DNA of 15,282 nt from a virus (IMGVR_UViG_2740892031_000004), one strand, 5' to 3'. Positions 1,214 to 10,260 are shown, counted from the first letter of the stretch. A program made the numbers and translations. Notes: generated by a model not told the origin, from the letters alone.

Positions 1214-1341
1214 CCCAGCAACCCCGACGAAGACAACATCATCCAGGCCATGGAAAGAAAAAGAGCAACCAGCATTAGTGAAAATGAAATGCCGACAATT
1301 ACACAGAGGATCTTCGCCAGCGTTATGAGTTTGTCTGACAT
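1210..1341 (-). CDS. small hydrophobic protein (43 aa), unknown function
   Basis: ATG at 1339-1341 with GGGAGG just upstream; [43 protein letters not shown] is essentially one transmembrane helix. Stop TGA overlaps the Rz GTG. Sits between endolysin and Rz. Confidence 0.4.
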
Positions 1342-1355
1342 GCTTAATCCTCCCT

Positions 1356-1538
1356 TCACGATTTCAACGCAATGACCAGTTTTGCCAGCCCATACAGCAT
1401 CGGGGACACAGCAACACCGACCGCCACCCACTTAATGGCAAAAGCCAGTGCTCTGCTGATGTCATCAGTTACAGGCGCTTTCAGTTCAAGGCCATTTTTC
1501 ATAGTCAACCTCAACAGAATTCGTTTACACTTCGCCAT
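1356..1538 (-). CDS. small protein (60 aa) with C-terminal hydrophobic segment, unknown function
   Basis: ATG at 1536-1538 with AAGGGAG 4 nt upstream; [60 protein letters not shown]. The ORF-track version extends to a GTG at 1571. Confidence 0.4.
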
Positions 1539-1694
1539 GTTCTCCCTTGCCTTACTCAAGGTCAGAAACACAAAACCTCGCTTGGTGCCAACAAACGGGG
1601 TTTTTACTTTTATTCACTTACGTTTCGCCAGTTCGCAGGATTTCGTGTTATCCGCCCGCGTGGCCATTCCTCATTTTTCAGCAAAATATTCTGC

Positions 1695-2228
1695 TTATCT
1701 GTCGATACCCCAGCACGCCAGCGCGCTCTCCTGGTCACGACGGGATACCTGACCGTAACAGTTGTTTGAACGAATACGGCAGTCTCTGCCACCGTCCTTA
1801 ATCCACCAGCGAATCGCTTCGCAGGCACCTTTTCGATCACCAGCATTAATTCGTCTGTAAAACGTCGACGGGAAACACTTACCGGGACCAATGTTGTACG
1901 GACAGAATGACGCGATCCCCGCTTTCTGGGGTTCGGTCAGCGGCACTCTGATGTTTTTCTCCACCCACGCCAGCGCTTTATCACGCTCAATGGCGTTAAC
2001 CTGGTCGCATTTTTCCTTCGACAACTTCATGCCCGGAACGACAGGTTTGCCATCCACCATGATGGCACCACGGCAGATGGTCCAGATACCTGCACCATCA
2101 CGGTATGCTGTGGTGTGGTTGCCTTCCTTTTCATCCAGAAACTGGTCGAGAATGTCAGGCGCAGGCGCACCAGCGGCAATCAGCGCCAGAACGGCAGCCG
2201 ACAGGCCGTATTTGATTTTGGTGTTCAT
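1695..2228 (-). CDS. R: phage lysozyme (T4-lysozyme / GH24 family) with N-terminal SAR-type hydrophobic segment
   Basis: 177 aa. N-terminal GLSAAVLALIAAGAPA hydrophobic stretch, then a Glu-8aa-Asp-5aa-Thr catalytic signature (DEKEGNHTTAYRDGAGIWTICRG) as in P1 Lyz / R21-type SAR endolysins. ATG at 2226-2228; no obvious SD in the AT-rich 36-nt spacer upstream. Confidence 0.9.
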   Translation of the reverse strand: MNTKIKYGLSAAVLALIAAGAPAPDILDQFLDEKEGNHTTAYRDGAGIWTICRGAIMVDGKPVVPGMKLSKEKCDQVNAIERDKALAWVEKNIRVPLTEPQKAGIASFCPYNIGPGKCFPSTFYRRINAGDRKGACEAIRWWIKDGGRDCRIRSNNCYGQVSRRDQESALACWGIDR

Positions 2229-2264
2229 GGATATATTAAATATTCAGCCGCTGTCCCTGGCCCA

Positions 2265-3155
2265 CTAAATACGCACTTTAAGATAAGTCAGCCCCGGATG
2301 AAGCCAGTAAGCCGGCACTTTTTTAAAGGGTGGAGTATTAAAATCACGAAGAAGAGCCTCCCGCACAATTGCATCCTTATCAGCACCACTGGCCAGCGCT
2401 TCAATCTCAGCGGCTACCTGAAGATATCCCATGCAACGGCCAACGCGCTTCATCAGCCCCTGCTTTTTATTGTTCTTCAGGTAATCAATGGCAAATTCAA
2501 TGAGCTCCTCACTGTGCTGGTGCGATGGAGGTGTTACTTTCCCATTTTCTGAGATGGTTATTTTCCCAGCATCACCGGATACAACAAAGGATGGCCGGTT
2601 ACACTCCCATTCCAGCTCACTGAAATTATCATTATGAATACTGAAACACTCTGCGAGATTTCTGCTCATCACTTTCCGACAATAATCGTCAAACGCAGCA
2701 AACTGCTTTTCATCACCAGAAGGCACCAATATCGACCATTTCTTATTCAGCTCAACGACGTAGCTCTCCAGTTTTTCAATACGTGATTCAACATCATCTT
2801 TTTCTGACCGCAGTGTTGACGGCGGCATCTTCAGAGAACAAGTAATTCTTCCCGGTAGCTTTCCTTTGTAGGTTATCAACACATCCTGCGCCTCTAAAAT
2901 TACGGGGCGCTTTTCCGGCAACGGTTCGTTCCATTCACATAACCCGGCAGCAACATCCATGAAAAACTGCTTCGCCTGCTTTTTCGCCTCAGCTTCGTAA
3001 AACTCCAGCGTGGCACCTTCAGTACGGTCAAGACTAATCGCCACATCTGGCAACAACAGCGACGCTTGCCCGTCACCTTCCGGCTTCACAGTAACAGTAA
3101 CCTTATCCCCGTAATTATTTATCCCCTTAACAACCAGTTCATATTTTTTATTCAT
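2265..3155 (-). CDS. hypothetical protein (296 aa) inserted between holin and endolysin; no recognised domain
   Basis: Long clean ORF. ATG at 3153-3155 lies 4 nt after the holin TAA stop (3160-3162), with a GGGGAGAG SD inside the holin 3' end. No signal peptide or transmembrane segment seen. I do not recognise the sequence. Confidence 0.7.
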   Translation of the reverse strand: MNKKYELVVKGINNYGDKVTVTVKPEGDGQASLLLPDVAISLDRTEGATLEFYEAEAKKQAKQFFMDVAAGLCEWNEPLPEKRPVILEAQDVLITYKGKLPGRITCSLKMPPSTLRSEKDDVESRIEKLESYVVELNKKWSILVPSGDEKQFAAFDDYCRKVMSRNLAECFSIHNDNFSELEWECNRPSFVVSGDAGKITISENGKVTPPSHQHSEELIEFAIDYLKNNKKQGLMKRVGRCMGYLQVAAEIEALASGADKDAIVREALLRDFNTPPFKKVPAYWLHPGLTYLKVRI

Positions 3156-3159
3156 CACT

Positions 3160-3375
3160 TTACTCTCCCCGCGCCGCCTTACGCCGGTCCTCTTTGATTT
3201 TGAAATACAGGTTAGTCAGGTACGTCAGCAGCCCAAACAGCAGACTCCCCAGCACGCCTATTGCCGCCCACTGAGACGGGGAAACCCTGTCCAGCAACTG
3301 CAGGAACCAGTAGCCCGTTCCCACCGCTGACGTGGTGTATGACACACCTGTTGTGATTTTTTCCATCTGGTACAT
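3160..3375 (-). CDS. S: class II holin, phage-21 S21 pinholin type, with dual-start motif
   Basis: [71 protein letters not shown] is near-identical in pattern to recalled S21 / EssD. Two in-frame ATGs (3373-3375 and 3364-3366) fit the holin/antiholin dual-start arrangement; GGGAGA SD upstream. Confidence 0.85.
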
Positions 3376-3451
3376 ACCCCGTCTCCCGTTATCCGGAAGC
3401 TCACAACAATATAAAGACCACCGGCACACACCGATGGTCCCTTGCGCAGGC

Positions 3452-3697
3452 TTACATCATCATGTCGCTGTCAGGTGTGGGTTCACCGCCATCTGAAGCA
3501 CTCCCGTCACCCGCGATACCTTCCGGCTCCGGAACCGCTGGTACGCCCAGCAGCTCATCCAGAATGGCATCCACTTCTGCATCAAGACGCGCCTCAAGGT
3601 TCTGGCGGAGTTTCTGTTTCAGTGCGCTCAGGACTTCTTCAGAGCGCAGGACTTCCTTCACTGCCTCAGCAGTGACCAGGGATGTGATTTCTGACAT
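3452..3697 (-). CDS. small acidic hypothetical protein (81 aa)
   Basis: ATG at 3695-3697; [51 protein letters not shown]... with an acidic, Pro/Gly-rich tail ending MMM. Resembles the small conserved ORFs found just upstream of S in Stx-type prophages (family not confirmed). Confidence 0.5.
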
Positions 3698-3734
3698 GGG
3701 ATTTTCTCGTTGAAAGGTGTTGTCAAGAAAGTGA

Positions 3735-3917
3735 CTACGGAATGAGCGGATCTTCGGGTTTGCTTCCGGCTGACTGACTGGCGCTGATTCTCTCAGCGGC
3801 CCTTTTATCAATCTGCCTGCGCCAGAAATCGCGCACTGCCCTGTACCCACCCGAAAGAAGATACATAACACAGACTGCCATACAGAAGTACAGCATTACC
3901 TGATGAATAAATGTCAT
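3735..3917 (-). CDS. small putative membrane protein (60 aa)
   Basis: ATG at 3915-3917 with weak SD; N-terminal hydrophobic helix (VMLYFCMAVCVMYLLSGG) followed by a basic tail. Confidence 0.35.
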   Translation of the reverse strand: MTFIHQVMLYFCMAVCVMYLLSGGYRAVRDFWRRQIDKRAAERISASQSAGSKPEDPLIP

Positions 3918-3935
3918 AATTTCTTACCGTTATGG

Positions 3936-3941
3936 TTGACA
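3936..3941 (+). promoter_or_regulatory. candidate -35 hexamer (TTGACA) for a short + strand transcript
   Basis: Exact TTGACA consensus at 3936-3941, but only weak -10 candidates 16-18 bp downstream (TTAGAA / TAGAAA). Confidence 0.2.
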
Positions 3942-4015
3942 ATGAGAACTGTTTTCATTTAGAAATGATTGATGTCGAAAGCATCTTTTCTTTACATTCT
4001 CCATTGGGATTACCT

Positions 4016-4052
4016 CCGCCAGCTTCCATTCCTGCCGCTGGCGGCTTTTTTT
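4016..4052 (+). terminator. intrinsic terminator on + strand, convergent with nanS-p 3' end
   Basis: 8-bp stem CCGCCAGC (4016-4023) / GCTGGCGG (4037-4044), then a T7 run (4046-4052). On the minus strand the run is A7 upstream of the hairpin, so this acts only for + strand transcription. Confidence 0.45.
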
Positions 4053-4053
4053 A

Positions 4054-6015
4054 TCATGCCGCGATGTCCGCGTTGTTCACTTCCACCTTCACACTGTCAA
4101 TCAGCAGCGTATATGTCGCCGCCTTTGATATGCCTGTCAGTTGCAGTTTGTCCGCCGCCCCTGATGCCGGAGATTTCACCAGTGTGAACGGCGTCCCCCG
4201 TTTCTCATCCAGTACCGGCGTCACCTGAATGCTGTTGTTTCCGGCAAACTCAAAAGCCAGTGTGTGCCATCCGTTATCAAAGACCCCGAACGTATCCAGC
4301 TTCGCATTCGGCTTCTTGTGGTGCATCGCGTTCAGGTTCGTCGCATCCGTCTGCAGGAAGAAGGACATCAGCATGTCGTTGCCTTCCTCTGCCAGCGTCA
4401 CTCCCTCCGGCAGGGACGACAACTGCCAGTAAATGCCCAGGGCAAACTGATTCGGCACCAGTGAACCCGGCAACTTAAACCGTACGCTCACACGTCCCCC
4501 CTTCTTCAGTAACTCCACTCCCTGTCCGGCTGCATCATGCTCCAGAAACCAGATGTGGTTTTCCGGTTTATTCAGTTGCAGGGCCTTACCTCCCGTAGCC
4601 CCCGCATCACTGACCACCGCTTCAGCAATGTTTTTGTTAACATTGTCTCCGCTCGCCGGTTTGTGATAATAGCGCCAGCCCTGTGATGCCAGGTCTTCGC
4701 CGGACGCCAGCAGACTCATCAGGGTTCGGTTACTGACCGGGGCTTCCGGCTCTCTCTCCGTACCTTCACCGGAAGGTCCGGTGGGCTTCACCGTATCAGG
4801 CTGTTTTCCGGTAATGAATTCAGCGTTTCTCCCGGCATGCACAAGAATCGCCGTTGCCAGACGGTCGGAAATAATCCCACGACGTGCCCATGATCCAAAA
4901 TGCGTTTTACGGTCGGCCGTCGTCCAGGTTTTGGCGTCCGTTCGACCACCGGCTCCGTAATACCCAATATCCGCAACATCCGGATCTTCTGACGGCTCGT
5001 TGGTACCCACATTTCGCCCGTTTTCATCCGTCATAAACGGCACAAAGAAGATTTTTTTTGCGGATTTCGTCTTGTATGCACCATACACCGCATCGTATTG
5101 CGAAGAATAAGTCTGCTTCCAGTAGTAGGTCGTGTCGCCACAAATCCAGGGAACCGATGACGGAGAGCCCCCGAGACACTGACCTCCGAATTCCGACAGG
5201 TCAGAACGATATTTTTCCACCATGGAATCAAACAGCCCCGGCTGAGTGGCGTATGCACCCTGTTTCAAATCAAACTCGCCCTGCATCCAGACCACTGCAA
5301 GCAGAATATTTTTAGGGTTGGCCTTCAGTGCGGCCTGAGTACGGGTAAGCAGGTCCTTGTACAGTGGCTTATCAACACCCCAGCGTGCCGAGGTCTCGCT
5401 TGCGCTGGTGGATTCGCTGAAGGTACCTTCATCGCCCGCCAAAAATGCAGAACCACCACGGCAGCACGGAACCAGAAGAATACCGGCATTCGCCGGAATA
5501 AACGGCAACAATTTCTTCGCGATATGTAATCCCTGCCCCACGCATCCATACTGAGCTGCGCTGGCTTTCGGGTGTGAAAACTTACTCAAATCCTGAACAT
5601 CATGCAGGCAGTGGTCCGCAGGAATAATGTCATTGTAGTTACAGGACGCACCACCCGGCGTGACAGTGCTGCGACGCGCCAGCTGTTTAATACGCGGGTC
5701 CGGACGGTCATATGTCTCCGGCAGCGGAAGCCCTTCACCATACGCCATACCGTTTGACCGCCCGGCTAGGGCAACAACAAAGTAATACTCCGGGTTGCTG
5801 GTGGTGCTGATAACTGCGCCTTCTCCATCCGACGGCTTCACCACCACAGGTGTGGTGACATCACCTTCCGCCGCAATGGCCTGCATCAGGGTATAAGGCG
5901 TGATGGCCACCGGACTGCCAAATGGCTGCCACCCCTCCTTCAGTTTTTGTGTCAGTCGTTTCGCAAGGTCTGACGGCGATGCCGCCCTGACAACATCATA
6001 GTGTTTAAATGCCAT
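4054..6015 (-). CDS. nanS-p: prophage NanS-p-type sialate O-acetylesterase (DUF1737 N-terminus plus SASA esterase region)
   Basis: 653 aa from ATG at 6013-6015 (ORF track gives 658 aa from 6030, which lacks an SD). N-terminus MAFKHYDVV...EGWQPFGSPV matches the DUF1737 pattern seen in the large yjhS/nanS-like proteins downstream of stx in EHEC prophages. Same position relative to Q and S as in Stx phages. Confidence 0.75.
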   Translation of the reverse strand: MAFKHYDVVRAASPSDLAKRLTQKLKEGWQPFGSPVAITPYTLMQAIAAEGDVTTPVVVKPSDGEGAVISTTSNPEYYFVVALAGRSNGMAYGEGLPLPETYDRPDPRIKQLARRSTVTPGGASCNYNDIIPADHCLHDVQDLSKFSHPKASAAQYGCVGQGLHIAKKLLPFIPANAGILLVPCCRGGSAFLAGDEGTFSESTSASETSARWGVDKPLYKDLLTRTQAALKANPKNILLAVVWMQGEFDLKQGAYATQPGLFDSMVEKYRSDLSEFGGQCLGGSPSSVPWICGDTTYYWKQTYSSQYDAVYGAYKTKSAKKIFFVPFMTDENGRNVGTNEPSEDPDVADIGYYGAGGRTDAKTWTTADRKTHFGSWARRGIISDRLATAILVHAGRNAEFITGKQPDTVKPTGPSGEGTEREPEAPVSNRTLMSLLASGEDLASQGWRYYHKPASGDNVNKNIAEAVVSDAGATGGKALQLNKPENHIWFLEHDAAGQGVELLKKGGRVSVRFKLPGSLVPNQFALGIYWQLSSLPEGVTLAEEGNDMLMSFFLQTDATNLNAMHHKKPNAKLDTFGVFDNGWHTLAFEFAGNNSIQVTPVLDEKRGTPFTLVKSPASGAADKLQLTGISKAATYTLLIDSVKVEVNNADIAA

Positions 6016-6208
6016 GGTTCTTTCCACCATCTGAAAAATAATTCTTTAAAATACCTGACATGTAATACAGAAAAAACACAAAACCATACCTTAAATAAAA
6101 ACCTCATCATCAAGCAGATATGCATGGATAAACTACAAGACGAGATATAAACCACCCTGCATTTAAATAAACAATAAACAACATCAGAAAAATAATTCTG
6201 CTCTATGG

Positions 6209-6235
6209 TTTACATTCAAAAATATCATTTATACT
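6209..6235 (+). promoter_or_regulatory. candidate sigma70 promoter for the AT-rich + strand ORF
   Basis: -35 TTTACA (6209-6214), 15-bp spacer, -10 TATACT (6230-6235), about 40 nt upstream of the ATG at 6276. Confidence 0.3.
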
Positions 6236-6275
6236 TTTCAGAACATCACCAGCAAGACATAAACAAGGAAACTAA

Positions 6276-6611
6276 ATGAAGTGGATTGTGATTGATACAG
6301 TTATCCAGCCATCATGCGGAATATCTTTTTCAGTCATATGGAGTAAAATAAAATTAATAATCTGGTATCAATCGGATGCTTTCTTACCTCCTGAAAGTAT
6401 ATTTACACTGACTCACACAGGTATCATGCTCAATAACAAAGTGCTACCTGTAACCATTTACAACGTAGCACCATTCAATAAAACATTCTGGAATTTAATC
6501 AAAAACAGCCAGGAATGTCCTACAAATACAGATAACGTATTGAATGAATGCTTTAATAACCGTTGCACTCTGCAAATATGTCCTTATGGACTAAAACAAC
6601 AAAGTCCATAA
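6276..6611 (+). CDS. hypothetical protein (111 aa) in an AT-rich islet; only convincing + strand gene outside IS2
   Basis: ATG at 6276 with AAGGA SD 6 nt upstream. The AT-rich coding sequence contrasts with flanking phage genes. C-terminal cysteine cluster (C81, C92, C97, C102). Stop codon lies inside a perfect 12-bp hairpin. No homolog recognised. Confidence 0.45.
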
Positions 6612-6625: not shown

Positions 6626-6667
6626 TCTGACAAAATCAATATAAACAGCCCCTCCGGAGAGGGGCTG
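6626..6667 (-). terminator. candidate intrinsic terminator (minus strand)
   Basis: GC-rich 9-bp stem CAGCCCCTC / GAGGGGCTG (6646-6667) with 4-nt loop, followed on the minus strand by UUUAUAUUGAUUUUG. Confidence 0.4.
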
Positions 6668-6981
6668 GAGAGTGGCGCTATGTGCCATTGCATGATGCCG
6701 GGTGCCTCCCGGTGAGTTCAGTATCAGCACCTGAACCCGCACAGAAAGGATAAGGGTCGGTGACAAAACACCAGTTGCTGATTGCCCCTCCGCACAGGGG
6801 GATTCACCATGCCAGTTTCTTTTAACAAACTCCCCGCAAACCAGACAACAGTCAACCGCCTGAATTGTGAGGTATTTAAAAATTTCTCCAGATAACTGAT
6901 ACCCGGCTAACAGTCTGGCGTTTTCTTTTTCAGCAACGGGAAAGCAACAACCACCACACCCACCAGCCGCCCATTTACCAC

Positions 6982-9848: not shown

Positions 9849-10004
9849 TTACTCCTCAGGTTCGTAAGCTGTGAAGACAGTGACCTCCGTCTGGCCGGTT
9901 CGGATTCGTACCTCGCAGAGGTCTTTCCTCGTTACCAGTGCCGTCATTATGACGGTTAAACAGATGACGATCAGGGCGATTAACATCGCCTTTTGCTGCT
10001 TCAT
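9849..10004 (-). CDS. hokD: Hok/Gef-family type I toxin (51 aa)
   Basis: Minus-strand translation MKQQKAMLIALIVICLTVIMTALVTRKDLCEVRIRTGQTEVTVFTAYEPEE matches the Hok family and is nearly identical to my recollection of HokD/RelF. AAGGAG SD 9 nt upstream of the ATG at 10002-10004. Below the 60-aa cutoff, so absent from the ORF track. Confidence 0.85.
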   Translation of the reverse strand: MKQQKAMLIALIVICLTVIMTALVTRKDLCEVRIRTGQTEVTVFTAYEPEE

Positions 10005-10260
10005 AGCCTGCTTCTCCTTGACCTTTCGGTCCGTAAGAGGCTAATCTCTATGTGTCGCATAGATATGGCCTCAGATTAATGTTAAGCGTCTTGCAGGACC
10101 GCGTAATGTTAACTGGGGCTTTTCTCTATCTGCCTTTTGGTGTTCATGCCTGAGACAGATAGCCTCAAGCACCCGCAGTCATTCTACTTAACTAAGATTT
10201 CCCCGCAAACCGTTTTTGTCCGGCACAGTAAATATCCAACTAAACCAATGGCGTTCGCTG
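10005..10260 (-). promoter_or_regulatory. hok mRNA leader region (expected site of mok overlap and sok-type antisense control)
   Basis: Non-coding stretch upstream of hok. Hok loci normally carry a long structured leader with an antisense RNA; the individual elements were not resolved here. Confidence 0.3.

What the first reader, a model, noticed from the sequence alone, without database searches (positions are those of the whole stretch)
3931..4056. Convergent + strand terminator with an upstream consensus -35 at the 3' end of nanS-p
A strong hairpin followed by T7 (4016-4052) ends 1 nt before the nanS-p stop codon but is oriented for + strand transcription. An exact TTGACA lies at 3936-3941, although the -10 is weak. 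This could define a short antisense RNA of about 90 nt covering the junction between nanS-p and the small ORF at 3735-3917, or simply block antisense read-through.
Basis: seen in the sequence. Interest (0 to 1): 0.35.

Follow-up and report, generated by a model that had tools for sequence, protein, structure and literature searches.

The report
Unannotated Esr41-like prophage small RNA gene
The promoter-like hexamer and the strong terminator bracket a compact, unannotated gene for an ~82-nt regulatory small RNA that is a prophage-borne relative of Esr41, an E. coli O157 sRNA known to shut down iron-uptake genes; it is a new member of a known kind, not a new kind of element.

Summary
TTGACA is at 3936-3941. 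An 8-bp GC-rich hairpin plus U7 lies at 4016-4052 and ends 1 nt before the nanS-p stop codon. No terminator this strong occurs elsewhere in the window or in 300 shuffles.

Together these features form a promoter-to-terminator cassette: -35 TTGACA, 18-nt spacer, -10 TAGAAA, predicted start G3971, end ~U4052, 82 nt. The cassette is homologous to the Esr41 sRNA gene of E. coli O157:H7 Sakai (78% identity). It shares the promoter geometry, the 5' hairpin, the single-stranded UCUCCAU seed and the CCGCCAGC/GCUGGCGG terminator. Homology stops at the cassette edges.

A covariance model built only from phage copies finds Esr41 (E 6e-4). Rfam's Esr41 model hits the window far below its gathering score, so the gene goes unannotated.

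The slot, between the prophage sialate esterase and the lysis genes and convergent with them, is where the validated Hfq-dependent sRNAs PasC, PasA and EcOnc52 lie.

The seed is complementary to the ribosome-binding sites of two validated Esr41 targets, chuA and cirA. The most likely function is therefore an Hfq-dependent, trans-acting translational repressor.

Expression was not tested, and no covariation supports the fold. Copies occur in 975 of 5426 complete E. coli genomes and in 306 phage records.

The parts
3936..3941 (+). -35 hexamer TTGACA
   Evidence: Read directly. It is TTGACA in 58 of 65 unique modules at this slot, TTGACT in 6 and TTAACT in 1 (the module set was selected for TT[GA]AC, for unselected counts). 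It aligns with the -35 of the Esr41 gene.
3960..3965 (+). -10 hexamer TAGAAA, 18 nt after the -35 (4 of 6 matches, final T missing)
   Evidence: TA(A/G)AAA with a 17-18 nt spacer is found in 48 of 65 unique modules. Esr41 has TATATA at the same spacing. PasA and PasC, which are expressed (northern blot and RNA-seq, PMC8550237), have TCAGAA/CAGAAA here.
3971..4052 (+). Predicted sRNA, 82 nt: GAUGUCGAAAGCAUCUUUUCUUUACAUUCUCCAUUGGGAUUACCUCCGCCAGCUUCCAUUCCUGCCGCUGGCGGCUUUUUUU
   Evidence: The start is inferred from register with Esr41, whose Rfam model starts at GAUGC five nt after its -10, and from the PasA 5' end six nt after its -10. Model R1 matches 3971-4052 end to end; this is a self-match, because the window is in the seed alignment. 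The fold is -20.7 kcal/mol, z = -2.7.
3971..3985 (+). 5' hairpin GAUGU-CGAAA-GCAUC
   Evidence: Present in both the MFE and the centroid fold. Esr41 has GAUGC-UCUAG-GCAUC at the same place. It is not conserved in the VT2-Sakai subtype: 74% of cells are paired and there is no compensatory change.
3986..4015 (+). Single-stranded U-rich linker carrying the seed; seed core AUUCUCCAU at 3996-4004
   Evidence: Unpaired in the centroid fold. T30, C32, A33 and T34 of the RNA are the only invariant columns outside the terminator and the CGAAAG block across 21 diverse variants. The region is complementary to the chuA and cirA ribosome-binding sites.
4016..4044 (+). Terminator hairpin CCGCCAGC / 13-nt loop / GCUGGCGG
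   Evidence: Seven of the 8 pairs never vary in 21 variants, and 98.8% of cells are paired.
4046..4052 (+). U7 tail (intrinsic termination; the 3' oligo-U expected to bind the Hfq proximal face)
   Evidence: A T-run abuts the esterase stop codon in 193 of 199 loci. The role of the poly-U tail in Hfq binding is taken from PMC4104026.
4054..6030 (-). Context: nanS-p-type sialate O-acetylesterase (SASA, DUF1737, DUF6645), convergent with the sRNA gene
3735..3917 (-). Context: DUF1378 ORF, first gene after the sRNA slot on the late strand; followed by DUF826 and P21-type holin S

Best explanation
Window 3936-4052 (+) is a self-contained gene for an Esr41-family small RNA, carried in the late region of a lambdoid prophage and convergent with nanS-p.

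Inferred steps:
- A sigma-70-type promoter (TTGACA, 18 nt, TAGAAA) starts transcription at about G3971.
- The intrinsic terminator at 4016-4052 releases an ~82-nt RNA with a 5' hairpin, a U-rich single-stranded region carrying the seed AUUCUCCAU, and a GC-rich terminator hairpin with a U7 tail. This is the typical build of an Hfq-dependent sRNA.
- Because it has its own promoter on the strand opposite the Q-dependent late operon, it can be made in the lysogen while the late genes are silent.
- By analogy with Esr41, the seed (an anti-Shine-Dalgarno sequence) pairs, with Hfq, to the ribosome-binding sites of chromosomal mRNAs such as chuA (haem receptor) and cirA (catecholate siderophore and colicin Ia/Ib receptor) and represses their translation.

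Shown here: the sequence features, their conservation, the homology to Esr41, the synteny with PasC/EcOnc52, and the in-silico seed-target complementarity.

Not shown: promoter activity, the exact 5' end, Hfq binding, and regulation of any target.
For: 1. Homology to Esr41. The pairwise alignment of the cassette (TTGACA to U-run) gives 82 identical of 105 aligned positions. The score of 40 compares with 8.5 +/- 2.6 for 1000 dinucleotide shuffles, none of which reach it. The alignment covers the -35, an identical 18-nt spacer length, the -10, 5 nt to GAUG, the 5' hairpin, the seed, the terminator arms, the U7 and even the following ATCA.

2. Model searches in both directions. Rfam RF02676 (Esr41) is the best Rfam hit for the region, covering all model positions 1-74 at 3978-4052 (+), 20.7 bits, E 0.048-0.17. 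Covariance model R1, built from 21 phage variants without Esr41, finds Esr41 in Sakai SpLE1 as the best non-self hit: 23.9 bits, E 5.8e-4 in 60 kb searched with filters off.

3. Homology is confined to the cassette. The flanks are 17/60 and 16/60 identical, and the best local score in 300-nt flanks is 12 against 40 for the cassette.

4. The same slot holds validated sRNAs.
- PasC ends 2 nt from the esterase stop codon in E2348/69.
- EcOnc52, an Hfq CRAC peak in Sakai Sp4, spans the esterase stop codon.
- PasA and PasC are Hfq-dependent and were confirmed by northern blot (PMC8550237 Table S6; PMC4104026 Table S2).

5. The terminator is unique in the window and absent from 300 shuffles.

6. Conservation pattern. 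The -35, the -10 and their spacing, the seed block and the terminator stem are the conserved parts, while the 5' hairpin and the loops vary.

7. Seed-target complementarity.
- Window seed against the chuA ribosome-binding site: -17.6 kcal/mol, top 0.5% of 16,656 background windows.
- Window seed against the cirA ribosome-binding site: -18.0 kcal/mol, top 0.4%.
- Esr41 gives -20.2 and -25.2 kcal/mol at the same CAUGGAGA sites.
- Esr41 repression of chuA, cirA and bfr at the ribosome-binding site was confirmed by compensatory mutations (PMC5286369; PMC8065619).

8. Retention. There are 2194 copies in 975 of 5426 complete E. coli genomes at 72-100% identity, and 306 phage records, mostly Stx1 and Stx2 phages.
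Against: - No expression data for this variant were available. The -10 lacks the highly conserved final T, and the tool's promoter scan did not call the site.
- No base pair shows compensatory change. The terminator pairs are invariant, and the 5' hairpin is paired in only 74% of cells, so the fold rests on thermodynamics and sequence conservation alone.
- The Rfam score (20.7 bits) is far below the Esr41 gathering score (102), with E only 0.05-0.17.
- Tree et al. 2014 list no Hfq peak at the homologous sites of Sakai Sp5 (about 1270630-1270812) or Sp15 (2922031-2922167). However, their filter required peaks more than 100 nt from features and is known to have dropped a real sRNA for that reason (PMC7547250).
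- Complementarity to the bfr translation start is not above background (-9.3 kcal/mol, 35th percentile).
- The background for the duplex test was one 50-kb chromosomal stretch, and the energies ignore accessibility.
- The shuffle z-scores are inflated because both sequences were cut to start at TTGACA and end in a T-run.
Confidence: 0.72

Rival explanations
1. A decaying, silent relic of an Esr41-like gene. The weak -10 no longer supports transcription, and only the terminator matters, as an insulator that stops stray + strand (antisense) transcription from entering nanS-p.
For: The -10 TAGAAA has only 4 of 6 matches and lacks the final T, and the promoter scan did not call it. There is no expression evidence for this subtype. 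No EcOnc peak is reported at the Sp5 or Sp15 homologues.
Against: - TTGACA, the 17-18 nt spacer and TA(A/G)AAA are kept across subtypes whose RNA bodies have diverged strongly. A relic promoter should decay first.
- PasA and PasC have an equally poor -10 (TCAGAA/CAGAAA) and are abundant RNAs (baseMean 1294-3879; PMC8550237 Table S2).
- The seed block is invariant in 21 variants, which an insulator role does not require.
- No + strand gene or called promoter lies upstream that would need insulating.
Confidence: 0.12
2. The RNA acts mainly in cis, as an antisense RNA. It would pair with the complementary intergenic segment of the Q-antiterminated late transcript between nanS-p and the DUF1378/DUF826/holin genes. 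Alternatively, convergent transcription would interfere with late transcription. Either way it would modulate processing or the timing of lysis-gene expression after induction.
For: The RNA is perfectly complementary to 3971-4052 of the late transcript. It always sits at the esterase/lysis junction. PasA RIL-seq chimeras include the 3' ends of the esterase mRNAs E2348C_0688 and E2348C_1246.
Against: - It overlaps no coding sequence or ribosome-binding site on the late strand. The DUF1378 start is 54 nt from the predicted RNA 5' end.
- Esr41 has the same cassette, works from SpLE1 where no late transcript exists, and acts on chromosomal targets (PMC5286369).
- The seed rather than the whole body is the conserved part.
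- This role is not exclusive of the trans role.
Confidence: 0.1
3. The hairpin serves the - strand. As an RNA stem-loop just after the nanS-p stop codon, it would stabilise or mark a processing site at the 3' end of nanS-p mRNA. The + strand T-run and the TTGACA would then be incidental.
For: The same stem folds on the - strand (-30.6 kcal/mol for the 126-nt stretch, z = -2.1). It begins 9 nt after the stop codon.
Against: - On the - strand the stem is preceded by A7 and not followed by a U-tract, so it is not a terminator there.
- The T-run on the + strand is kept in 193 of 199 loci.
- The Esr41 cassette keeps the stem, the U7 and the promoter without any esterase gene next to it.
Confidence: 0.04
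4. Chance co-occurrence of a hexamer and a hairpin, with no biological unit.
For: TTGACA alone is not enriched (5 observed, 9.8 expected).
Against: A terminator of this strength appears in 0 of 300 shuffles. The cassette is homologous to a characterised sRNA gene. It is conserved at the same slot in about 96% of sampled loci.
Confidence: 0.02

Closest known systems
Esr41 (EcOnc14; Rfam RF02676), Hfq-dependent sRNA of E. coli O157:H7 Sakai, encoded on SpLE1/OI-43
   Same: - Promoter geometry: TTGACA, 18 nt, -10, then 5 nt to GAUG.
- A 5' GAUG...CAUC hairpin.
- A single-stranded (U)UCUCCAU(G/U)GG seed.
- CCGCC(A/G)GC / GCUGGCG terminator arms, a U7 tail, and ATCA after it.
- 78% identity over the cassette.
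- Reciprocal covariance-model hits.
- Complementarity to the chuA and cirA ribosome-binding sites.
   Different: - The window RNA is 82 nt against 74 nt. It has 8 extra nt (UUUUCUUU) after the 5' hairpin and a 13-nt loop instead of about 10 nt.
- The seed has U where Esr41 has G (CCAUUGGG against CCAUGGGG) and two fewer U upstream. This weakens the predicted chuA and cirA pairing by 3-7 kcal/mol and loses the bfr pairing.
- The -10 is TAGAAA rather than TATATA.
- The location is the prophage late region next to nanS-p, not SpLE1.
- It scores far below the Rfam gathering score, and blastn does not link it to Esr41.
PasC (EPEC E2348/69) and EcOnc52 (Sakai Sp4): sRNAs abutting the 3' end of the prophage sialate esterase gene
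   Same: - Identical slot and convergent orientation.
- The terminator U-run ends 1-2 nt from the esterase stop codon.
- A TTGACA -35 about 105-120 nt upstream, and an RNA of about 79-85 nt.
- A GCCAGC...GCUGGC terminator core.
- Hfq association has been shown for both.
   Different: The body and seed sequences are unrelated. Model R1 gives only 11.5-12.6 bits (E 0.5-1.1) at these loci. The pairwise alignment is gappy (z 4-6.6, inflated by the shared ends). These RNAs have no UCUCCAU seed.
PasA / EcOnc51 (Pas family; Pearl Mizrahi 2021; Zhu, Shabalina and Storz 2026 preprint)
   Same: It lies between the sialate esterase and the holin in lambdoid prophages, convergent with them. It is Hfq-dependent, about 85 nt, with an intrinsic terminator. 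It has a related promoter (TTGACA ... CAGAAAAU).
   Different: PasA lies one module further from the esterase, with an EcOnc52-like module in between. Its seed, GCCAGCACCU, overlaps its terminator arm. Its targets carry CUGAUGCUGG motifs. Sequence similarity to the window is weak.
AgvB / AsxR (prophage anti-sRNAs; Tree 2014)
   Same: They are short Hfq-binding RNAs encoded convergently in the moron region downstream of pR' in lambdoid prophages. They form a family with a conserved 3' part and variable 5' or seed parts. This is comparable to the fixed promoter/terminator chassis with varied bodies seen here.
   Different: They sit upstream of nanS-p, between stx and nanS-p. They are 51-60 nt and act as sponges for core sRNAs (GcvB, FnrS). 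There is no Rfam hit to RF02702 or RF02703 in the window.

Membership tests
Esr41 (Rfam RF02676) | Match to the Rfam covariance model at its gathering score (102 bits) | tested here: not met
   The hit at 3978-4052 (+) covers model positions 1-74 of 74 but scores 20.7 bits, E 0.048 (171-nt search) to 0.17 (601-nt search). There is no hit at the gathering threshold. Every blastn match to Esr41 itself is at least 95% identical, so known copies vary little; that this explains the high cut-off is my inference.
Esr41 (Rfam RF02676) | Statistically supported sequence homology to Esr41 over the whole RNA | tested here: met
   Model R1, built from 21 phage variants without Esr41, hits L265 2039-2121 at 23.9 bits, E 5.8e-4. 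The pairwise alignment has 82/105 identical positions, and 0 of 1000 shuffles reach its score. Flanks are not similar.
Esr41 (Rfam RF02676) | Architecture: 5' stem-loop, single-stranded seed, Rho-independent terminator with a long poly-U | tested here: met
   Folds of the window RNA and of Esr41 give the same three-part layout. The window has a U7 tail. The 5' stem is not conserved in all phage subtypes.
Esr41 (Rfam RF02676) | Seed able to pair with the ribosome-binding sites of validated targets (chuA, cirA, bfr) | tested here: inconclusive
   In silico, chuA gives -17.6 and cirA -18.0 kcal/mol (top 0.5% and 0.4% of background), at the same CAUGGAGA sites that Esr41 uses. bfr is not above background. 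No experiment was possible.
Esr41 (Rfam RF02676) | Expressed as a ~70-80 nt RNA that binds Hfq and depends on it | not testable with these tools
   No transcriptome or CRAC data could be queried. The published EcOnc list has no entry at the Sp5 or Sp15 homologues, but that list was filtered to exclude peaks within 100 nt of features.
Pas sRNAs PasA/PasC (and EcOnc51/52) | Location between the prophage sialate esterase gene and the holin/lysis genes, transcribed convergently (> < >) | tested here: met
   Window gene order on the - strand is esterase, [sRNA on +], DUF1378, DUF826, holin S. PasC and EcOnc52 abut the esterase stop codon in the same way.
Pas sRNAs PasA/PasC (and EcOnc51/52) | Detectable sequence similarity to PasA or PasC (the published family was defined by blastn, word size 28, more than 75% coverage) | tested here: inconclusive
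   R1 scores the PasC, EcOnc52-like and PasA-adjacent modules at 11.5-12.6 bits, E 0.5-1.1. Pairwise z is 6.6 (PasC) and 4.0 (PasA, EcOnc52), inflated by shared ends. MAFFT aligns only the terminator core and the -35. The window would not pass the published blastn criteria.
Pas sRNAs PasA/PasC (and EcOnc51/52) | PasA seed GCCAGCACCU overlapping the 5' arm of the terminator | tested here: not met
   The window has CCGCCAGCUUCC at that place. Only GCCAGC is shared.
Intrinsic (Rho-independent) terminator | GC-rich stem directly followed by a U-tract on the transcribed strand | tested here: met
   The stem has 8 bp with 7 G-C pairs, followed by C and U7 on the + strand. The 13-nt loop is longer than the usual 3-8 nt. 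The site is unique in the window and absent from 300 shuffles. There is no U-tract on the - strand.
cis-antisense RNA to a coding gene (for example lambda OOP, P22 sas) | The transcript overlaps a coding sequence or ribosome-binding site on the opposite strand | tested here: not met
   The predicted RNA at 3971-4052 lies wholly within the 3918-4053 intergenic gap, 1 nt from the nanS-p stop codon and 54 nt from the DUF1378 start codon.

The most novel reading that the evidence does not exclude
The junction between nanS-p and the lysis genes of lambdoid prophages may be a dedicated sRNA expression slot. It would have a fixed chassis (TTGACA, 17-18 nt, TA(A/G)AAA promoter; CCGCCAG/CUGGCGG or GCCAGC/GCUGGC terminator abutting the esterase stop codon) and exchangeable seed-bearing bodies: Esr41-like, PasC-like, EcOnc52-like, and the L031, L255, L064 and L070 types.

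On this reading, Esr41, so far treated as an EHEC/SpLE1-specific sRNA, is an escaped copy of this phage cassette. Functional Esr41 paralogues would be carried by Stx1 and Stx2 phages and by prophages in about 18% of complete E. coli genomes, including non-STEC strains.

Haem and siderophore uptake (chuA, cirA), colicin Ia/Ib sensitivity, and possibly LEE and motility would then be under multi-copy, prophage-delivered control.
Probability: 0.35. Interest if true: 0.6.

Novelty: new member of a known kind. Interest (0 to 1): 0.42.

Why it matters
Esr41 is described in the papers and reviews I read as an O157/SpLE1-specific regulator of iron uptake, colicin sensitivity, LEE and motility. If the phage-borne relatives are active, three things follow.

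- Stx phages and many other lambdoid prophages deliver an Esr41-type regulator together with nanS-p and the toxin genes.
- Strains carry several paralogues with slightly different seeds.
- Phenotypes of esr41 deletions may have been buffered by these copies.

The copies are invisible to current annotation. No feature is annotated at any sampled copy in RefSeq genomes, they score below the Rfam cut-off, and blastn from Esr41 does not reach them. RNA-seq, CLASH and RIL-seq reads may therefore have been discarded or mis-assigned.

The case also illustrates how a promoter-to-terminator sRNA cassette moves as a unit between a phage and a genomic island.

Tried and rejected
1. Rfam at gathering thresholds found nothing in 3900-4060, only STnc100 and sok elsewhere in the window. 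The Esr41 link appeared only in the permissive E-value search.

2. I first pursued PasA/PasC as the identity because of the synteny. Alignment and model R1 show these are positional analogues, or at most remote relatives, not the family of the window RNA.

3. Covariation gave nothing. RNAalifold keeps only 6 invariant pairs, and counting my 13-pair structure gives 0 compensatory pairs, so no structural proof was obtained.

4. A short + strand peptide (ORF 3932..4228, or the internal ATG at 3966) was rejected. It reads through the terminator into antisense nanS-p, and the ATG and frame are absent in close variants such as the TTTAAAAAACCGATAT subtype.

5. The GTDB species-representative scan with the esterase gave only 18 loci, mostly chromosomal nanS-like genes. 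Only the E. albertii and Escherichia sp. MOD1-EC7003 loci aligned over the full-length esterase (query residues 1-652 and 6-652). The E. albertii-type loci lack the cassette.

6. Tree 2014 Table S2 was searched for an Hfq peak at the Sp5 and Sp15 homologues, and none is listed.

7. The original Esr41 papers (Sudo 2014, 2018) are not held, so the experimental Esr41 5' end is taken from the Rfam model.

8. blastn from Esr41 against complete E. coli genomes returns only copies at least 95% identical.

9. A REP or mobile-repeat explanation was rejected. Across the 199 sampled esterase loci the element keeps the same position. The one relative found outside an esterase context is Esr41 in SpLE1.

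10. The first literature search combining Esr41 with generic terms was uninformative.
Full report
**1. The observation**

- TTGACA occupies 3936-3941 on the + strand.
- CCGCCAGC (4016-4023) pairs with GCTGGCGG (4037-4044) across a 13-nt loop.
- C4045 and T7 (4046-4052) follow, then A4053 and the nanS-p stop codon at 4054-4056.

The ORFs on the - strand are as follows.

- A 658-aa SASA esterase with DUF1737 and DUF6645 domains (4054..6030).
- A DUF1378 protein (3735..3917).
- A DUF826 protein.
- A P21-type holin S.
- A DUF1327 protein.

Upstream of nanS-p on the - strand lies an STnc100-type pR'-tR' RNA at 6637-6841. The window is therefore the late region of a lambdoid prophage, with the late genes on the - strand.

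A hairpin of this strength (8 perfect pairs, at least 6 G-C, at least 6 T within 9 nt) is unique in the window on both strands. It appears in none of 300 dinucleotide shuffles.

TTGACA alone is not remarkable: 5 observed against 9.8 expected. The generic promoter scan missed the site because the -10 lacks the final T.

On the - strand the stem is preceded by A7 and has no U-tract after it. It is a + strand terminator only.

**2. The slot is a known home of small RNAs**

The 136-nt intergenic stretch has 2194 copies in 975 of 5426 complete E. coli genomes at 72-100% identity. None of the sampled copies carries an annotated feature. The surrounding 501 nt match 306 phage records, mostly Stx1- and Stx2-converting phages.

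The literature places several validated Hfq-dependent sRNAs at this exact position.

- In EPEC E2348/69, PasA (85 nt) and PasC (79 nt) lie between the sialate esterase gene and the holin gene, in the orientation '> < >'. PasC ends 2 nt from the esterase stop codon.
- In Sakai, the Hfq-CRAC peak EcOnc52 (Sp4) spans the stop codon of the esterase ECs_1088.
- EcOnc51 (Sp12) is the PasA-type copy.

All of these start about 30 nt after a TTGACA and end in a GCCAGC...GCTGGC hairpin plus a U-run. The sources are PMC8550237 Table S6, PMC4104026 Table S2, and bioRxiv 10.64898/2026.05.13.724894.

**3. The window RNA is not PasA or PasC but an Esr41 relative**

A permissive Rfam search gave Esr41 (RF02676) as the best hit. 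It covers the whole model at 3978-4052 (+), at 20.7 bits and E 0.05-0.17. This is far below the gathering score of 102.

Reading the Esr41 locus of Sakai SpLE1 and aligning it shows homology along the whole cassette.

- TTGACA, then an 18-nt spacer in both.
- TATATA in Esr41 against TAGAAA in the window.
- Five nt, then GAUG.
- A 5' hairpin: GAUGC-UCUAG-GCAUC against GAUGU-CGAAA-GCAUC.
- The seed: ACAUUUUCUCCAUGGGGUAUUCCCU against ACAUUCUCCAUUGGGAUUACCU.
- The terminator arms: CCGCCGGC/GCUGGCG against CCGCCAGC/GCUGGCGG.
- U7, and then ATCA, which in the window contains the esterase stop codon.

Identity is 82 of 105 aligned positions, and no shuffle out of 1000 reaches the alignment score.

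A covariance model built from 21 diverse phage copies, with Esr41 left out, finds Esr41 as its best non-self hit (23.9 bits, E 5.8e-4). The PasC, EcOnc52 and PasA modules score 11.5-12.6 bits (E 0.5-1.1).

Outside the cassette the two loci are unrelated: 17/60 and 16/60 identities. The unit that was transferred and kept is therefore promoter to terminator.

By register with Esr41 and with the mapped PasA 5' end, the RNA should start at G3971 and end in the U-run. That gives 82 nt.

**4. Anatomy and conservation**

The 82-nt RNA folds into three parts at -20.7 kcal/mol, z = -2.7. Esr41 gives the same layout.

- A 5' hairpin (3971-3985).
- An unpaired U-rich stretch with the seed (3986-4015).
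- The terminator (4016-4044) with a U7 tail.

I collected 199 loci with a full-length phage esterase from IMG/VR, phage records and E. coli genomes.

- 193 have the T-run abutting the stop codon.
- 191 have TTGAC[AT] 60-150 nt upstream of it.
- 117 have the T[CT]TCCAT seed.

Many of these loci are near-identical, so the counts describe prevalence, not independent events.

In 65 unique modules the -35 is TTGACA in 58. The -10 is TA(A/G)AAA in 48, with a 17-18 nt spacer.

In 21 diverse Esr41-like variants, the invariant columns fall in three places: the terminator stem, the UCCAU block of the seed, and part of a CGAAAG motif. The 5' hairpin and the loops vary.

No pair shows a compensatory change. 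Seven of the 8 terminator pairs never vary, and the 5' hairpin is paired in only 74% of cells. The structure is thus supported by energy and conservation, not by covariation.

Other loci keep the same promoter and terminator but carry different bodies: the L031, L255, L064 and L070 types.

**5. Likely mechanism**

Esr41 is an Hfq-binding sRNA. It represses chuA, cirA and bfr by pairing at their ribosome-binding sites, as confirmed by compensatory mutations. It also affects LEE and motility (PMC5286369, PMC8065619, PMC7873438).

The chuA and cirA ribosome-binding sites both contain CCUCAUGGAGA, the complement of the Esr41 seed.

| RNA | chuA (kcal/mol) | cirA (kcal/mol) |
|---|---|---|
| Window seed | -17.6 (top 0.5% of background) | -18.0 (top 0.4% of background) |
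| Esr41 | -20.2 | -25.2 |

The window seed keeps nine contiguous pairs (AUUCUCCAU) plus GGG after one mismatch. The background was 16,656 windows of one 50-kb chromosomal stretch. bfr is not supported for the window RNA.

I therefore propose the following sequence of events.

- A lysogen-expressed RNA is made from its own promoter on the strand opposite the late operon.
- It is released by the intrinsic terminator and bound by Hfq through the U7 tail and the U-rich body.
- It represses translation by occluding Shine-Dalgarno regions of chromosomal mRNAs.

Only the sequence-level steps are shown here. Transcription, Hfq binding and regulation are inferred.

**6. Rivals**

- *Silent relic with only an insulating terminator.* This is disfavoured because the promoter elements and the seed are conserved across diverged subtypes. 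PasA and PasC are also abundant despite an equally poor -10.
- *Mainly cis-antisense role on the late transcript.* This cannot be excluded and is not exclusive of the trans role. However, the RNA overlaps no coding sequence or ribosome-binding site, and Esr41 works where no late transcript exists.
- *- strand stabiliser role for the stem.* This does not explain the conserved T-run or the promoter.
- *Chance.* This is excluded.

The absence of an EcOnc entry at the Sp5 and Sp15 homologues is weak evidence against expression. That list required peaks more than 100 nt from features. The same group reports that a true sRNA (StxS in Sp5) was dropped for that reason.

**7. Novelty and verdict**

The kind is known: a prophage-encoded, Hfq-type sRNA in the moron/late region. 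So are the closest family (Esr41) and the slot (PasA, PasC, EcOnc52).

What I did not find described is that Esr41 has widespread, unannotated relatives at the nanS-p/lysis junction of Stx phages and other lambdoid prophages.

- The reviews and papers I read treat Esr41 as EHEC/SpLE1-specific.
- The 2026 Pas preprint only notes that Esr41 Rfam hits are frequent near PasD.
- blastn from Esr41 finds only copies at least 95% identical: 714 places in 695 genomes. The phage-type copies are more numerous: 2194 places in 975 genomes.

I file the finding as a new member of a known kind, with moderate interest. It is real, readily testable and relevant to EHEC and ExPEC iron regulation, but it is not a new mechanism.

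Noticed in passing
window 6637-6841 (-): A full-length match to Rfam STnc100 (133.5 bits). This is the short pR'-to-tR' RNA of the prophage late promoter, the PasD/StxS type. It lies about 600 nt upstream of nanS-p on the late strand.
   Followed up: partly
window 10002-10174 (-): A full-length match to the Rfam sok antitoxin RNA (106.4 bits), which indicates a hok/sok-type toxin-antitoxin module inside the prophage.
   Followed up: no
window ~6000-6600, ORF 6276-6611 (+): An AT-rich island (GC 0.30-0.35, against about 0.55 around it) lies between tR' and nanS-p, the slot where stx genes sit in Stx phages. It holds a 111-aa + strand ORF with no Pfam match. No stx genes are present in this window.
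   Followed up: partly
L002 2755-3045 (E2348/69 PP2) and L085 1415-1690 (Sakai Sp12): Two promoter-to-terminator sRNA modules lie in tandem between the esterase and the holin: PasA/EcOnc51, then an EcOnc52/PasC-like module. The published 'minor' 236-nt PasA 3' end (743264) coincides with the second module's terminator, next to the esterase stop codon (743265). That species is therefore probably read-through of the PasA terminator.
   Followed up: partly
L031, L066, L251 (long-loop type); L255, L261, L263; L064; L070 (regions next to the esterase stop codon): These loci have the same TTGAC(A/T)-17/18-TA(A/G)AAA promoter and the same CCGCCAG/CUGGCGG-type terminator abutting the esterase stop codon. 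The RNA bodies differ and lack the UCUCCAU seed; one type has a 34-37-nt terminator loop. It looks like seed swapping on a fixed chassis.
   Followed up: partly
L002 3134-3163, L003 2545-2574, L085 1288-1317: A late-strand-oriented terminator (GGCCGTCAGTGGGTGACACTGGCGGC followed by a T-run) lies just upstream of the holin in the PasA/PasC-type prophages. It shares the GCCGCCAG motif with the sRNA terminators (R1 partial hits of 12.5 bits).
   Followed up: no
L265 2013-2119 (Sakai SpLE1) and RefSeq E. coli genomes: Esr41 itself carries no annotated feature in any sampled RefSeq genome (714 places in 695 genomes, all at least 95% identical). Its homology to the phage cassette ends exactly at the -35 and at ATCA after the U-run.
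   Followed up: yes
L087, L088, L162, L171 (E. albertii-type esterase ending ...APASS*): These esterase loci lack the convergent terminator and promoter next to the stop codon. They are the only sampled class without an sRNA cassette at the slot (6 of 199 loci).
   Followed up: no
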